Source of the DNA: a phage
DNA: 64,000 nucleotides
Strand: one strand, 5' to 3'
Sequence record: PX969468.1
The translations under genes were made by a program, and so were the position numbers. The notes under the pieces were generated by a model. It searched no databases. It was not told where the DNA came from and saw only the letters and a list, made by a program, of their open reading frames with translations. Positions 10,278 through 27,246 of the stretch are shown one piece after another; position 1 is the first letter of the stretch; the number at the start of each line of letters is the position of its first letter.

Positions 10278-10628
10278 ATGAAAGATGAGGATAAGCTGCT
10301 ATATCTTAAAGTCCCCCTTGAAATACTGTCTATGTCAAAAGTTTTGAATGGCACAACTGGGGAGGTTGTTGTTCTTGACTTATATGACAAGATCGTATAC
10401 TGCTACCTGCACAACTGGTATAAGCTTGGAGAAAATTCACGCTTCACACCCAGCACCAGGAAAATTGCAGCAGATGTTGGGATAAAGAAAACAAAAGCAG
10501 CAGCGTGCGTTAAAACTTTAGAATGTGCAGGAGTGGTTGAAATATCCACACAAGGGAGAGGTAAAAGATGCACATTTTCCAAAGTTTTGCCACCAGAAGA
10601 AGTTATTCGAATGTCAACAACTGGTTAG
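10278..10628 (+). CDS. putative DNA-binding protein (winged-helix/HTH-like)
   Basis: 116 codons; segment TRKIAADVGIKKTKAAACVKTLECAGVVEI has helix-turn-helix character; GGAG RBS. Confidence 0.35.
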   Translation: MKDEDKLLYLKVPLEILSMSKVLNGTTGEVVVLDLYDKIVYCYLHNWYKLGENSRFTPSTRKIAADVGIKKTKAAACVKTLECAGVVEISTQGRGKRCTFSKVLPPEEVIRMSTTG

Positions 10629-12386: not shown

Positions 12387-12674
12387 GGTTGTTTTCGTGT
12401 ATCATGATGAATATCCAATTTAAAGATGAGTTTGATGGCTTTATCTCCGGATGCTTTGAAACAGGGTTCGGAGAAGGCTGAGTTACCCTTAGAGGGCTTG
12501 ATAGTGCACCACACTTAAAATGGTAGGGGCAGCCAGCACATGACGATGTGACCCCAGCCAACCTGTAATAAGGTCGAGCCAGAGCGCGGTAATGGGTATC
12601 TGGTAACCCACTCGTTGGGTCTTGTTGGTCCAGGACGCTGGGCAAGTCGCAGGGAACACCACCCTGCGGCGAAC
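12387..12674 (+). other. GC-rich noncoding segment with a 26-codon mini-ORF and stable stems (candidate leader or sRNA)
   Basis: overlapping ORFs on both strands indicate absence of stops rather than coding; lies between a gene end and a consensus promoter. Confidence 0.25.
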
Positions 12675-12703
12675 TTGACAATCAGTATTTGCCGTGATAA
12701 AAT
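12675..12703 (+). promoter_or_regulatory. sigma70-like promoter TTGACA-17-TAAAAT with TG extension
   Basis: perfect -35, 17-nt spacer, near-consensus -10; 29 nt upstream of GGAGG RBS and ATG at 12732. Confidence 0.6.
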
Positions 12704-12731
12704 CCACCTATCACGTGATAATGGAGGAAAC

Positions 12732-13070
12732 ATGGCGGATACAACTAAAAAGCGTCGCCGTAGAGGCAGACCTCTGAAAGAGGAGTCCAACGCCATTCAG
12801 CTAGAGAAGAACATTCTTGATATGAAGGAATCTTTTATAGCGATGGTTCCAGAAGCTCACAAAGTTTTAAGAGAGCTGATGTTGGATCCGAAAACCAAGC
12901 AAAATATTCGTCAAAGCATTGCAGAGTATGTCCTTGATAAGGCAGACCGAATGCAGGAAGAATATGATGAGATGTTTGGTGAAGAGGAAGAGGTGGTAGT
13001 AGAAGAGGCTGAAAAACCAGCACCTTTTATGCCATTTACCACAGAGATACAGCCTGTTGGCAATAGTTAA
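12732..13070 (+). CDS. small AT-hook-like DNA-binding protein with acidic C-terminal tail
   Basis: 112 codons from the Met with GGAGG RBS; KKRRRRGRPLKEE (RGRP core) near N-terminus; C-terminus EEYDEMFGEEEEVVVEEAEK. Confidence 0.5.
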   Translation: MADTTKKRRRRGRPLKEESNAIQLEKNILDMKESFIAMVPEAHKVLRELMLDPKTKQNIRQSIAEYVLDKADRMQEEYDEMFGEEEEVVVEEAEKPAPFMPFTTEIQPVGNS

Positions 13071-13079
13071 AATATTTTC

Positions 13080-13108
13080 TTGACAAACTTTGCTTAACAG
13101 TGTAATAT
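13080..13108 (+). promoter_or_regulatory. sigma70-like promoter TTGACA-17-TAATAT upstream of tRNA cluster
   Basis: read directly; first tRNA begins about 60 nt downstream. Confidence 0.55.
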
Positions 13109-13332: not shown

Positions 13333-13446
13333 AATTTATATTTTTAAATGCATAAATCATACAGATAATGACATTGATATTTATCGTCGTTTATACTAGT
13401 CACTAACTGCTCGAAAATCAGTGTCATTATCAGTGTAATTTATAAA

Positions 13447-13635: not shown

Positions 13636-13735
13636 GCTAGGTAAGCCCTTTGGCAAGGGCGAGGATTTTTAATCCTGAAAATAGACGAGGTAGTCGTTGA
13701 ATACATAGGTGGTTCGATTCCATCACCTAGCACCT
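13636..13735 (+). pseudogene. atypical tRNA-like element (Lys-TTT-like 5' half, ~30-nt insert, no encoded CCA)
   Basis: perfect 7-bp acceptor GCTAGGT/ACCTAGC, D-arm GCCC/GGGC, anticodon-like loop TTTTTAA, T-arm GGTGG-TTCGATT-CCATC, but about 30 nt between anticodon arm and T-arm and CCT instead of CCA. Confidence 0.3.
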
Positions 13736-14798: not shown

Positions 14799-15082
14799 GA
14801 GTTACTGCACTGGTTGTTTTGTGCTTGTTATTGTGTGGGTGTGCAACCAGCGTTGAGAGAGAATACAAGATTGACCCTCCGGATGTAGGAAGGTTGATTG
14901 TTAAACCTCCCGAGGGTGCTATGAAACCACCTGCTAAAGCTATCCCTTTGAAGAAAGGTGCGCCAGATGCGGTGAATTCTGGCATTATGAGGGATAATAA
15001 CCTGTCTTGTAGTAATGATAGAGCTAAATTGATCATTTTGCAAGACTATATAAGAACACTGTTTCCAAAGGAGAGAGGTTAA
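14795..15082 (+). CDS. o-spanin (Rz1-like outer-membrane lipoprotein)
   Basis: 95 codons; signal peptide with lipobox L-C-G-C, proline-rich mature part. Confidence 0.6.
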   Translation: MRVTALVVLCLLLCGCATSVEREYKIDPPDVGRLIVKPPEGAMKPPAKAIPLKKGAPDAVNSGIMRDNNLSCSNDRAKLIILQDYIRTLFPKERG

Positions 15083-15507
15083 TGTCTAAGATTTACGGAC
15101 CGTGTTCTGAAAAGCAGAAGATGATCCTAGAGAACGATGCAGATATTTTGGTGATCGGAGGTGCAGCTGGGTCTGGAAAGTCGTTCCTCTTGCAGCTAAT
15201 GCCACTTAAAATTATTGATGACCCACACAGCTCTGTGGTTATGTTCCGAAGAACAACTCCACAGTTGGAAGGTGAGGGTGGGCTATGGCCTAAAGCAGTA
15301 GCTATTTACAGTGATCTGCCTGAAAACATTAAACCAAAGTTCAGAGAGAAGGATCATAAGTTTATTTTTCCACGGTTTGATCCGAGCACTGGCAAGTGGG
15401 ACAGGAGCAAAAAAGGGGCCGTTGTAAAATACTGCCACATGGAGTATGTCCAAGATAAGCTTAACCATCAAGGCCTTGAGTACACCATGGTTTGCTTCGA
15501 TGAGGGT
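15082..15507 (+). CDS. terminase large subunit, exon 1 (ATPase domain)
   Basis: Walker A GGAAGSGKS and Walker B VCFDEG; reading frame stops at TAA immediately after DEG. Confidence 0.65.
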
Positions 15508-16390
15508 TAATTTGTAGCTCTCGTAAAACCTCCCTAATTGCGGGGAAATCTTTATTATTGACACCACCAACCTGTTATGGTAACATGATAGAGGCTTCGA
15601 AGAGAGATCGAAGGTATGGTAACAGTGTGTTGATTTAGATAATCCGCAGCGAAGCATCCGAGAGGATGAACGTTCAACGACTAGTCGAAAGACGTAGAAT
15701 CAAGCGATTCGAAACGGGAGGGTGAATGTGTAATACTAAAAAATGTATGGATTGCCAAAGAGTTCTACCTCTTGATGATTTCTTTTTATCATCTAAGAGC
15801 CAGGATGGATACTCAGGTACATGCAAGGAATGCTATATGTACTACAGGAAGAATGGATCTCGTAGAAACAAAAATATGGTTAAGAGAGATGATGCAGCAT
15901 CTTTTATTCAAGACTTACTGAAGAAAGGTGAGCTTTTTGAATGTAAATCTTGTCATGAAAGTATGCTTGCTGATAGTTTTTACACAAAACGCGACTATGG
16001 TAAAGTGTATCTAGTCACGAACAGGTGTAAGATGTGTGAAAAGTTTTATCAGATTGAGAAGAAATTTCACATAACAAAAGATGAATACTATCGTCTACTC
16101 TCAGATCAAGATCATAAGTGTGCAATCTGTAGAATATCTCTTGATGAGTATAAGACTCAAGGATATAGAGATTTCTTTTGTGTTGATCATGACCATAAAA
16201 CTGGTGCTGTAAGAGGGTTGCTTTGTGATAAATGCAACAGGGCTTTAGGTTTCTTCCAAGAGGATGAGGAAACCATTCTTAGAGCGGCAGAGTATTTACA
16301 CATTCATAAGATATAGTCTGGTCTGCATGGAGACATGCAGCTGCCTGAAAATGGCGGGGCAAGACTAGCGACCTTGCCCGAACATAAACG
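15508..16390 (+). mobile_element. group I-like intron carrying an HNH endonuclease gene, inserted in the terminase large-subunit gene
   Basis: P/Q/R-like core elements AATTGCGGGGA (15536..15546), AATCCGCAGC (15641..15650), GTTCAACGACTAG (15672..15684); possible guide GCTCTC (15517..15522) pairing with exon end GAGGGT; ends in G; 3' boundary could be 16387 or 16390. Confidence 0.55.
15726..16316 (+). CDS. HNH homing endonuclease (intron-encoded)
   Basis: 196 codons; GGGAGGG RBS; several CxxC pairs and HNH core CVDHDHKTGAVRGLLCDKCNRALG. Confidence 0.7.
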   Translation: MCNTKKCMDCQRVLPLDDFFLSSKSQDGYSGTCKECYMYYRKNGSRRNKNMVKRDDAASFIQDLLKKGELFECKSCHESMLADSFYTKRDYGKVYLVTNRCKMCEKFYQIEKKFHITKDEYYRLLSDQDHKCAICRISLDEYKTQGYRDFFCVDHDHKTGAVRGLLCDKCNRALGFFQEDEETILRAAEYLHIHKI

Positions 16391-27217: not shown

Positions 27218-27246
27218 TTGACAATGCACCATAATCATGGTAAAAT
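27218..27246 (+). promoter_or_regulatory. sigma70-like promoter TTGACA-17-TAAAAT with TGG extension
   Basis: read directly. Confidence 0.6.

What the first reader, a model, noticed from the sequence alone, without database searches (positions are those of the whole stretch)
12675..13070. Small AT-hook-like protein with poly-acidic tail behind a near-perfect promoter
Seen in sequence: perfect -35 TTGACA, 17-nt spacer, TG-extended -10 TAAAAT, GGAGG RBS, then a 112-codon protein with KKRRRRGRPLKEE near the N-terminus (RGRP is the AT-hook core) and a C-terminal EEYDEMFGEEEEVVVEEAEK tail. Inference: a nucleoid-targeting or DNA-mimic protein, plausibly an early host-takeover or anti-restriction factor, sitting just upstream of the tRNA promoter.
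Basis: partly seen in the sequence, partly recalled or inferred. Interest (0 to 1): 0.45.

Follow-up and report, generated by a model that had tools for sequence, protein, structure and literature searches.

The report
Probable missing small terminase of rV5-like phages
The small basic-headed, acid-tailed protein is real and conserved, but it is most likely the so-far unannotated small subunit of the DNA-packaging enzyme of rV5-like phages, apparently using an AT-hook-like arm where other small terminases have a helix-turn-helix domain, and not an early host-takeover or anti-restriction factor.

Summary
A 112-codon ORF (12732-13070, +) follows TTGACA-17 nt-TGaTAAAAT and GGAGG, and carries KKRRRRGRP and an acidic stretch. 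The window is a Vequintavirus (99% identical to rV5-like coliphages). The gene is rV5 gene 74, called "hypothetical protein" wherever a database record annotates it, and its promoter was already predicted as P074.

The "early nucleoid/anti-restriction factor" reading is not supported. Five lines of evidence point to a small terminase (TerS):
- Residues 28-71 match the helical-hairpin core of a family that matches the solved PaP3 and NV1 TerS structures.
- AlphaFold predicts a two-helix hairpin flanked by disordered ends.
- In distant relatives (23-30% identity) the gene lies 0-2 kb upstream of the large terminase and portal genes, directly abutting the large terminase twice.
- No other TerS candidate exists in the window or in a complete sister genome.
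- PaP3 TerS also has an acidic C-terminal tail.

Only 27 residues precede the core, too few for a helix-turn-helix. An invariant GRP basic arm sits there instead.

The same promoter architecture also precedes two morphogenesis-region genes, so it does not imply early expression. Fold searches were uninformative, and nothing has been tested experimentally.

Confidence is about 0.7. Novelty: new variant of a known kind. Interest is moderate.

The parts
12675..12703 (+). Sigma-70-type promoter with TTGACA -35 (12675-12680), a 17-nt spacer and TG-extended -10 TGaTAAAAT (12695-12703). It equals rV5 P074.
   Evidence: Listed in rV5 Table S4. Position conserved in KB57, PVP-SE1, GAP31 and CR8. No transcript data.
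12723..12727 (+). GGAGG ribosome-binding site, 4 nt before the ATG.
12732..13070 (+). CDS of 112 aa (rV5 gene 74 / rv5_gp070; phrog_3330). Proposed small terminase subunit.
   Evidence: TerS inference.
12747..12779 (+). Codons 6-16, KKRRRRGRPLK: basic AT-hook-like arm with the invariant GRP. Proposed DNA-contacting element in place of an HTH.
   Evidence: GRP invariant in 35/35 members. 3-8 K/R in the 11 residues ending at GRP in every member, 4 or more in all but one truncated sequence. Sub-threshold Pfam AT_hook hits in relatives. Unstructured in AF2 models. DNA binding is inferred, not shown.
12777..12977 (+). Codons 16-82: predicted helical hairpin (helices 16-51 and 57-82, turn at DPKTK). 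Proposed oligomerisation core.
   Evidence: AF2 model with pLDDT 81-93 over the ten-residue blocks spanning residues 11-80. hhalign of residues 28-71 to the TerS-like family A3: probability 89.6%, E 1.9e-6. Direct weak match to PaP3 TerS residues 75-124.
12957..13013 (+). Codons 76-94: acidic stretch EEYDEMFGEEEEVVVEEAE, which overlaps the end of the second helix and then runs on as a disordered acidic linker.
   Evidence: Acidic composition is conserved but the sequence is not. pLDDT 53-57 in the 81-100 blocks and below 50 at residues 86-92. Comparable to the acidic tail of PaP3 TerS.
13032..13049 (+). Codons 101-106, PFTTEI: conserved C-terminal short motif. Proposed strand or peptide that contacts TerL or neighbouring subunits.
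   Evidence: P101, F102, T104 and I106 invariant in 23 Vequintavirinae sequences. Beta-prone equivalents (IPLTTEI, FFTTDI, GIVVNFGG) in distant members. Function is inferred only.
15082..15510 (+). First exon of the large terminase gene (intron- and HNH-interrupted). The proposed partner, 2.0 kb downstream on the same strand.
   Evidence: phrog_9526 terminase large subunit, 4.6e-76. Split TerL described for rV5. Between it and the CDS lie PtRNA, seven tRNA calls, an 89-aa ORF and the two spanin genes.

Best explanation
The ORF encodes the small terminase subunit (TerS) of rV5-like phages (Vequintavirinae and relatives), which no record searched here annotates for this group.

Proposed mechanism:
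- The two long helices (about residues 16-82) form the helical hairpin that assembles TerS protomers into a ring.
- The flexible N-terminal arm KKRRRRGRP projects from the ring and binds DNA, probably in the minor groove of AT-rich DNA. It takes the place of the helix-turn-helix domain of classical small terminases.
- The acidic linker and the terminal PFTTEI motif form the flexible C-terminal moiety that recruits or regulates the large terminase.
- That in turn starts headful packaging of replicated concatemers.

Shown here: the gene, its conservation, its own conserved promoter, the homology of its core to TerS cores, the predicted hairpin, synteny with TerL-portal, and the absence of another candidate. 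Inferred: ring assembly, DNA binding by the arm, TerL contact, and time of expression.
For: **1. Homology chain.**
- The family profile found, among 1.84 billion representatives, only small proteins of the same architecture plus one 207-aa protein, P0047 (E 3.7e-4).
- P0047 matches phrog_2538 'terminase small subunit' (5.4e-9) as well as phrog_3330 (1.1e-7).
- A profile of the P0047 family matches the solved small terminases of PaP3 (7joq, 1.6e-10) and NV1 (6w7t, 5.7e-8).
- hhalign of the finding's family against that family: probability 89.6%, E 1.9e-6, aligning residues 28-71 to the TerS core. With the shallower alignment A1 it is 69.9%, 4e-5.
- The family profile hits 7joq directly but weakly (E 0.3), aligning ...MLDPKTKQNIRQSIAEYVLDKA with ...MNDPNEKGGIRLKAAQDILDRAG.
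- Five of 35 members hit TerS PHROGs individually, the only recurrent annotated function.

**2. Reverse test.** The TerS-family profile was run against every six-frame segment of 40 aa or more.
- In the window (660 segments) it hits only this ORF (E 6.7e-4; next best 0.34).
- In the complete genome of a 99.4%-identical phage (1,435 segments) it hits only the orthologue (1.5e-3; next best 0.77).
- None of that record's 214 features is a small terminase.

**3. Structure.** AF2 with 35 sequences gives pLDDT 77.3 overall and 81-93 over residues 11-80. It predicts two long helices with a short turn and disordered ends. This is the hairpin-core layout described for TerS (PMC9611059).

**4. Synteny at 23-30% identity.**
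- The gene abuts TerL in L006 (stop 8375, TerL start 8376).
- It abuts TerL in L022 (5354/5355).
- It lies 0.35 kb upstream in L009, 0.9 kb in L021 and about 2 kb in L012/L013.
- It is always on the same strand and followed by a Mu-type portal.
- In five of the six Vequintavirinae records inspected beyond rV5 it sits between tRNA-Cys and tRNA-Tyr; spanins and TerL follow wherever the fetched stretch reaches that far.

**5. The acidic tail.** It has a direct counterpart in PaP3 TerS, whose residues 122-152 are acidic and disordered.

**6. Precedent.** A roughly 100-aa TerS without an HTH is known: RcGTA gp1 (PMC6854486).

**7. Virion proteomics.** The rV5 gene table marks no mass-spectrometry evidence for gene 74, as expected for a terminase subunit.
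Against: - The homology is remote. It covers about 45 residues of amphipathic helix, and helical segments can give inflated profile scores.
- The window protein itself has no TerS hit in Pfam, NCBIfam or PHROGs.
- The bridging family is itself unannotated, and in the one long contig examined it is not next to a recognisable TerL.
- The protein lacks the HTH that a review calls 'shared by all TerSs', and it is smaller (13 kDa) than the 15-21 kDa range.
- In Vequintavirinae it is separated from TerL by a tRNA array and spanin genes, and it has its own strong sigma-70-type promoter. This is unusual for a late packaging gene.
- There is no experimental or expression data.
Confidence: 0.7

Rival explanations
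1. A small DNA-binding regulator, possibly derived from a TerS. It would use the GRP arm and a dimeric or oligomeric helical hairpin to control transcription of the tRNA array and/or the downstream spanin-terminase-morphogenesis operon, rather than taking part in packaging.
For: - It sits at the head of the tRNA and late region with its own conserved promoter.
- The late-gene switch of rV5 is unexplained: no T4 gp33/45/55 homologues, although a TGGTAAAATA-type late motif exists (PMC3606486; motif enrichment 12 vs 3.9).
- Small basic-arm helical proteins are common regulators.
- Fold searches do not single out TerS.
Against: - The recurrent annotated similarity is to TerS. A transcriptional regulator appears only as a single marginal PHROG hit (E 0.041) in one of 35 members.
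- In distant relatives without a tRNA array the gene directly abuts TerL, the canonical TerS position.
- The phage would then have no TerS candidate at all.
Confidence: 0.12
2. One reading: an early-expressed AT-hook protein that targets the host nucleoid, or whose acidic tail mimics DNA, acting in host takeover or anti-restriction.
For: - RGRP core in a highly basic arm, and a strongly acidic C-terminal half.
- Near-consensus sigma-70 promoter with extended -10 that host RNA polymerase could use immediately.
- Sub-threshold Pfam AT_hook hits in relatives.
Against: - Synteny with TerL-portal across deep divergence.
- TerS-core homology.
- The acidic segment varies in sequence and is predicted disordered, unlike folded DNA mimics.
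- No match to any anti-restriction family in Pfam or PHROGs.
- The same promoter type drives genes in the morphogenesis region.
- Vequintavirinae are reported as exceptionally restriction-sensitive.
Confidence: 0.06
3. A packaging or head-assembly accessory factor other than TerS. Examples would be a TerL chaperone or a DNA-end or portal-associated helper that merely shares a helical hairpin with TerS.
For: - Conserved linkage to TerL-portal.
- Unusual size and lack of an HTH.
Against: - Sequence similarity is specifically to TerS cores.
- No separate TerS exists to which it could be an accessory.
- It was not detected in virions.
Confidence: 0.08

Closest known systems
Small terminases of Pseudomonas phages PaP3 and NV1 (PDB 7JOQ, 6W7T; PMC7672466)
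   Same: - A helical-hairpin core with a similar sequence pattern around the turn (…M.DP…K..IR…A…LD+A).
- A disordered acidic stretch C-terminal to the core.
- Homology linked through an intermediate family.
   Different: - PaP3 and NV1 have an N-terminal three-helix HTH domain (residues 18-63) that binds cos DNA. This protein has only a 15-residue basic GRP arm.
- In PaP3 a beta-strand forming a 9-stranded barrel lies between the hairpin and the acidic tail. Here the acidic linker comes first and a short beta-prone motif comes last.
- PaP3 is a cos packager, whereas relatives of this phage are circularly permuted headful packagers.
- Size is 13 kDa versus about 17 kDa.
RcGTA gp1, the small terminase of the Rhodobacter capsulatus gene transfer agent (PMC6854486)
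   Same: - A small, almost all-helical TerS that begins essentially with the oligomerisation helices and lacks an HTH.
- Encoded directly upstream of TerL.
- Associated with low-specificity packaging. A relative of this phage, phiTE, is cited as a generalised transducer.
   Different: - No detectable sequence relationship was tested or found here.
- RcGTA gp1 has no basic GRP arm, and its DNA binding is weak and non-specific.
- It belongs to a GTA, not a lytic myovirus.
T4-type gp16 (44RR TerS, PDB 3TXS)
   Same: - The core is just a long helical hairpin without a beta-barrel stalk.
- Flexible N- and C-terminal segments.
- Headful packaging in a large lytic myovirus.
   Different: - An HTH is predicted in gp16's N-terminus.
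- No sequence or fold-search hit to it was obtained here.
- gp16 is adjacent to gp17 and is a late gene.
AT-hook (Pfam PF02178) and GRPR-type minor-groove arms such as those of Hin recombinase and Tc1/mariner transposases (from general knowledge)
   Same: - An R-G-R-P core in a K/R-rich unstructured segment next to a helical DNA-binding or oligomerising module.
- GRP is invariant across the family.
   Different: - The residues after GRP are L-K-E-E-S rather than basic.
- Pfam's threshold is not reached.
- No DNA-binding data.

Membership tests
Phage small terminase (TerS) | Encoded next to or upstream of the large terminase gene on the same strand, in the packaging/head module | tested here: met
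   The gene directly abuts TerL in L006 and L022. It lies 0.35-2 kb upstream in L009, L021 and L012/13. In the window it is 2.0 kb upstream, with tRNAs, one ORF and the spanins in between.
Phage small terminase (TerS) | Central oligomerisation core made of a helical hairpin, with sequence similarity to known TerS | tested here: met
   AF2 predicts helices 16-51 and 57-82 with pLDDT 81-93 over residues 11-80. hhalign to a family that matches 7JOQ/6W7T gives probability 89.6%, E 1.9e-6. The reverse profile search picks only this ORF. The similarity is remote and covers about 45 residues.
Phage small terminase (TerS) | [quoted passage not shown] | tested here: not met
   Only 27 residues precede the aligned core. 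Residues 1-15 are unstructured and run straight into the long helix. No HTH family hit was found. A basic GRP arm occupies the position. RcGTA gp1 shows that a functional TerS can lack an HTH.
Phage small terminase (TerS) | Flexible C-terminal moiety that binds or regulates TerL | tested here: inconclusive
   A disordered acidic linker plus the conserved PF(T/S)T(D/E)I motif is present, and PaP3 has an acidic tail too. Binding to TerL cannot be tested here.
Phage small terminase (TerS) | Fold match of the protomer to solved TerS structures | tested here: inconclusive
Phage small terminase (TerS) | Ring oligomer of 8-12 subunits; recognises packaging-initiation DNA; modulates TerL ATPase and nuclease; essential for packaging in vivo | not testable with these tools
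   This needs multimer modelling, biochemistry or genetics.
AT-hook (Pfam PF02178) | R-G-R-P core | tested here: met
   RGRP at residues 11-14. GRP is invariant in 35/35 members.
AT-hook (Pfam PF02178) | Score above Pfam's gathering threshold (17.4 bits), with basic residues on both sides of the core | tested here: not met
   The window protein gives no AT_hook hit at E<=10. The best relative scores 16.1 bits. The C-terminal flank is LKEES, not basic.
AT-hook (Pfam PF02178) | Binds the minor groove of AT-rich DNA | not testable with these tools
   Would need EMSA or footprinting with netropsin or distamycin competition.
DNA-mimic anti-restriction proteins (Ocr, ArdA type) | Folded, rigid acidic surface imitating B-DNA; homology to a known mimic family | tested here: not met
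   The acidic stretch is short, varies in sequence and is predicted disordered: pLDDT 53-57 in the 81-100 blocks and below 50 at residues 86-92. No Pfam or PHROG hit to such families.
DNA-mimic anti-restriction proteins (Ocr, ArdA type) | Phage is protected from restriction-modification systems | not tested
   Literature only: the BASEL study reports Vequintavirinae as exceptionally susceptible to RM systems (PMC8594841), which argues against an effective anti-restriction factor.

The most novel reading that the evidence does not exclude
Vequintavirinae and their relatives package DNA with a minimal 13-kDa small terminase that has no helix-turn-helix at all. It would engage DNA through an invariant AT-hook-like GRP arm, presumably reading the minor groove or AT-richness rather than a specific major-groove sequence. 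That would be a distinct mode of packaging-site recognition. It could explain the circularly permuted genomes reported for Certrevirus relatives and the generalised transduction cited for phiTE. It would also contradict the statement that the HTH is shared by all TerSs. In these phages terS has further been uncoupled from terL by a tRNA array and given its own strong promoter, so TerS dosage or timing may be controlled separately.
Probability: 0.45. Interest if true: 0.6.

Novelty: new variant of a known kind. Interest (0 to 1): 0.45.

Why it matters
rV5-like phages are among the most often isolated coliphages, with Salmonella, Klebsiella and Cronobacter relatives, and they are candidates for therapy and biocontrol. 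No record or paper searched here names their small terminase.

Why identifying it would be useful:
- It would fill a hole in the annotation of more than 200 genomes.
- It gives a handle on packaging specificity and transduction risk, a safety question for therapeutic phages.
- It would allow rational engineering of packaging, for example of cosmid- or phagemid-like vectors.

Mechanistically, a TerS that replaces the HTH with an AT-hook-like arm would widen the known ways terminases recognise DNA, next to the HTH-less GTA terminase. If the assignment is wrong, the family is still a conserved DNA-binding-looking protein tightly linked to the packaging genes, and worth a knock-out.

Tried and rejected
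**Searches that led nowhere**
- Direct family searches with the window protein gave only phrog_3330 (unknown function) and noise: Pfam, PHROGs and NCBIfam.
- Literature searches for a Vequintavirinae small terminase, for AT-hook terminases and for transcriptomes of this group found nothing relevant. The phi92 genome paper is not held.

**Ideas considered and dropped**
- The GC-rich stretch upstream (12440-12670) as decayed tRNA genes, since relatives have tRNA-Leu/Arg/Cys there. No similarity to those tRNAs was found, there is no Rfam hit, and the fold z-score is only -1.9.
- The perfect palindrome TATCACGTGATA (12709-12720) between the -10 and the RBS as an operator. It does not recur in the window and occurs at chance frequency.
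- Repeats near the gene as a pac site. Only tRNA T-arm repeats and short chance pairs were found.
- Neighbouring small ORFs as TerS candidates: the 89-aa, 80-aa, 62-aa and 192-aa ORFs and the 116-aa winged-helix protein. None has TerS similarity.
- The 151-aa upstream-extended ORF from TTG 12615. It is rejected because all homologues start at the RBS-preceded ATG.

**A weakness left standing**
- The context of the bridging TerS-like family (P0053) did not show an adjacent recognisable TerL.

Full report
**What the window is.** The 2-kb stretch around the finding is 99.4% identical to rV5-like coliphages: S127 BCL3, ECP32 and the BASEL phage EduardKellenberger, genus Vequintavirus. The + strand of the window is the coding strand of the region that runs from a polynucleotide kinase/phosphoesterase gene pair through a tRNA cluster into spanins, an intron-split large terminase, portal, and head and tail genes.

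**Check of the observation.**
- TTGACA lies at 12675-12680, followed by a 17-nt spacer and TGaTAAAAT at 12695-12703.
- GGAGG lies at 12723-12727, the ATG at 12732, and the stop ends at 13070.
- The product is 112 aa, 13.1 kDa, pI 4.9. Net charge is +7 over residues 1-16 and strongly negative beyond residue 17.
- The acidic stretch (E76-E94) is followed by 18 more residues.
- The next promoter (13080-13108) and seven tRNA calls follow.
- The gene is rV5 gene 74 (rv5_gp070): "112 aa / 13099 Da / pI 4.9", with no homologue, function or mass-spectrometry evidence listed.
- The rV5 paper had already predicted both promoters, as P074 and PtRNA.
- The gene and promoter are therefore known objects. 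The function is not: every record that annotates the gene, among the 226 phage records that carry it, calls it hypothetical, and its PHROG (3330) has no function.

**The family.** A word-index search and a full HMMER scan of 1.84 billion representatives found a narrow family of small proteins, 63-144 aa, the shortest likely fragments. Apart from one 207-aa bridging protein (P0047, below), all share one architecture:
- a K/R-rich N-terminal arm ending in GRP, the only invariant motif (35/35 sequences, down to 23% identity);
- about 65 helical residues with a conserved pattern P.A...L..LM......(I/V)(R/K)...A...(I/L);
- an acidic linker conserved in composition but not in sequence;
- a short beta-prone terminal motif (PFTTEI, IPLTTEI, FFTTDI, GIVVNFGG).

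Several relatives score 12-16 bits on Pfam AT_hook, below the 17.4-bit cut-off. The window protein gives no hit. The AT-hook resemblance is thus a real, selected feature, but formal membership is not met.

**Lead to the small terminase.** The family profile gave a weak hit (E 0.3) to the solved small terminase of Pseudomonas phage PaP3. The alignment covers the hairpin turn...LMLDPKTKQNIRQSIAEYVLDKA against ...IMNDPNEKGGIRLKAAQDILDRAG.
- The exhaustive profile search recovered one longer protein, P0047 (207 aa, E 3.7e-4 for the whole library). It carries an HTH followed by the same helix pattern.
- P0047 matches both phrog_2538 'terminase small subunit' (5.4e-9) and the finding's phrog_3330 (1.1e-7).
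- A profile of P0047's relatives matches the PaP3 (1.6e-10) and NV1 (5.7e-8) small terminases, plus LuxR/GerE-type HTH domains for its N-terminal part.
- Profile-profile comparison of the finding's family with that family gives 89.6% probability, E 1.9e-6, over residues 28-71. With the shallower alignment it is 69.9%.
- Five of 35 family members individually touch TerS PHROGs, the only recurrent annotated function.
- In reverse, the TerS-like profile was run against every six-frame segment of 40 aa or more. It picks only this ORF in the window (E 6.7e-4, next 0.34). It picks only the orthologue in the complete 131.5-kb genome of EduardKellenberger (1.5e-3, next 0.77). None of that record's 214 features is a small terminase.
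- The BASEL authors opened their records at the small terminase gene or at the first gene of the operon containing it. This record opens at the spanin-TerL operon, which has no TerS in it.

**Structure.** With 23 sequences AlphaFold gave a mediocre model (pLDDT 69.6). With 35 sequences it gave pLDDT 77.3, with 81-93 over residues 11-80.
- The model has two long helices, 16-51 and 57-82, joined by the DPKTK turn. Residues 1-15 and 83-112 are unstructured.
- It corresponds to PaP3 helices alpha4-alpha5, after which PaP3 also carries an acidic disordered tail.
- Only 27 residues precede the aligned core, so a helix-turn-helix domain cannot be present.
- Fold searches returned only generic coiled coils. 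They neither support nor contradict the assignment.

**Genomic context.** In the most divergent relatives for which long contigs exist, the gene lies on the same strand as a Terminase_6-type TerL, with a Mu-type portal and head genes further downstream.
- Its stop is immediately followed by the TerL start in L006 (8375/8376) and in L022 (5354/5355).
- It lies 0.35 kb upstream in L009, 0.9 kb in L021 and about 2 kb in L012/13.
- Contigs where it abuts or nearly abuts TerL have no tRNA genes in between. The others, and all Vequintavirinae genera inspected, have tRNA genes around it.
- The simplest history is an ancestral terS-terL pair into which a tRNA array, and in Vequintavirinae the spanin pair, was inserted.
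- No convincing terminator lies between the gene and TerL in the window, so co-transcription is possible but not shown.

**The promoter.** It is conserved in position and type in other genera: TTGACA-17-TGATAAnAT, 46-57 nt before the ATG. It is therefore very probably functional. It does not mark the gene as early.
- The window contains the same architecture, TTGAC(A/T)-17-TGGTAAAAT, at 27218 and 46866. These are rV5 P051 and P036, in the rV5 late-gene block (genes 27-66).
- TGNTAAAAT, the rV5 'late' motif, is enriched (12 found against 3.9 expected) and nearly all copies are on the coding strand.
- Kropinski et al. note that sigma-70-like promoters are spread over the whole genome.

- The acidic region is a variable, disordered linker and not a folded DNA mimic.
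- There is no similarity to anti-restriction families.
- Vequintavirinae are reported as exceptionally restriction-sensitive.
- The linkage is to the packaging genes.

**Proposed mechanism.** Shown: a conserved small protein with a TerS-type hairpin core, a basic GRP arm, an acidic linker and a terminal motif, encoded upstream of TerL. Inferred:
- the hairpins build a ring;
- the arms bind DNA, probably in the minor groove of AT-rich DNA as in AT-hooks and GRPR arms (general knowledge);
- the C-terminal moiety contacts TerL, as the C-termini of lambda and P22 TerS do.

Certrevirus relatives are circularly permuted headful packagers, and phiTE is cited as a generalised transducer. This fits a low-specificity initiator, as argued for the HTH-less GTA small terminase.

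**Comparison and novelty.**
- It works like, and is remotely homologous to, phage small terminases. It fails one textbook feature (the HTH) and is smaller than the usual range.
- I therefore class it as a new variant of a known kind, not a plain member.
- Nothing in the papers searched names a small terminase for this phage group or an AT-hook-type terminase.

**Verdict.**
- Observation: confirmed.
The DNA-binding arm holds; the biological role does not.
- Best explanation: small terminase, confidence about 0.7.
- Main rival: a regulator of the tRNA/late region, 0.12.
- Interest: 0.45. This would be a useful functional assignment for a large, applied phage group and a mechanistically unusual TerS, but it rests on remote homology and synteny without experiments.

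Noticed in passing
window 12440-12670, especially 12554-12598: The non-coding gap upstream of the promoter is GC-rich (49-55% against about 40% around it). It has no Rfam hit and only a weak folding signal (z = -1.9). A 45-nt piece of it matches more than 700 T4-like phages at 88-93% identity, and in T4 that piece is the first codons of the hypothetical gene vs.8 (T4 64858-64902). In the window the corresponding frame is closed by a stop after about 17 codons. It may be a gene remnant or a shared mobile or recombination element; the meaning is unknown.
   Followed up: partly
window 13636-13734: ARAGORN calls a 99-nt 'tRNA-???' with a four-base anticodon (atcc). Rfam scores it as tRNA at only 35.5 bits. 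The BASEL record calls the equivalent a tRNA-Lys and the rV5 paper does not list it. It may be an intron-containing, frameshift-suppressor-like or decayed tRNA.
   Followed up: no
window 15082-16316 and beyond: The large terminase gene is split. The first exon (15082-15510) is followed by an HNH endonuclease ORF (15726-16316), as described for rV5 (three segments, one intron with a homing endonuclease). Distant relatives (L009, L012, L022) also have split TerL genes with HNH ORFs.
   Followed up: partly
window, + strand: 12695, 18083, 19209, 23717, 27238, 41376, 46886, 48579, 53217, 58327: TGNTAAAAT (the putative rV5 late-promoter motif TggTAaAAtA) occurs 12 times against 3.9 expected, 10 of them on the coding strand. 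Only three copies (12695, 27238, 46886) also have a TTGAC(A/T) -35 at 17 nt. This suggests two promoter classes that share one extended -10.
   Followed up: partly
window 12709-12720: A perfect 12-bp palindrome, TATCACGTGATA, lies between the -10 and the RBS, with a further GTGATA inside the -10 region. It does not recur in the window and is at chance frequency, so it is probably not an operator.
   Followed up: yes
window 13352-13443: An AT-rich inverted repeat (30-nt arms, 83% complementary, 32 nt apart) lies between tRNA-Tyr and tRNA-Ser. A promoter-like site lies at 13368-13397, inside its left arm and loop.
   Followed up: no
window 10278-10628: This 116-aa winged-helix-like protein has inconsistent annotation. 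The rV5 table calls it 'structural protein (MS evidence)', the BASEL record 'putative transcriptional regulator', and FV3 and PHROGs 'replication initiation protein'.
   Followed up: no
loci L016, L017, L019, L020 (KB57, PVP-SE1, GAP31, Hena1), 60-85 nt upstream of the homologue: In these genera a second T(G/T)(A/T)TAAAAT(A/G)(A/G)CCC element lies immediately upstream of the conserved TTGAC(A/G) -35, so there are tandem promoter-like elements. In KB57, PVP-SE1 and GAP31 the spacer of the main promoter contains a short inverted repeat (CAGAnA...TnTCTG).
   Followed up: no
loci L004, L005, L016, L017, L019, L020, L023 compared with L006, L009, L022: The tRNA array of Vequintavirinae appears to have grown at the junction between this gene and the terminase/spanin genes. 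In five of the six Vequintavirinae records inspected beyond rV5 the gene sits between tRNA-Cys and tRNA-Tyr (in ChuuTotoro two small ORFs separate it from tRNA-Cys), whereas distant relatives without an array there have it abutting TerL.
   Followed up: partly
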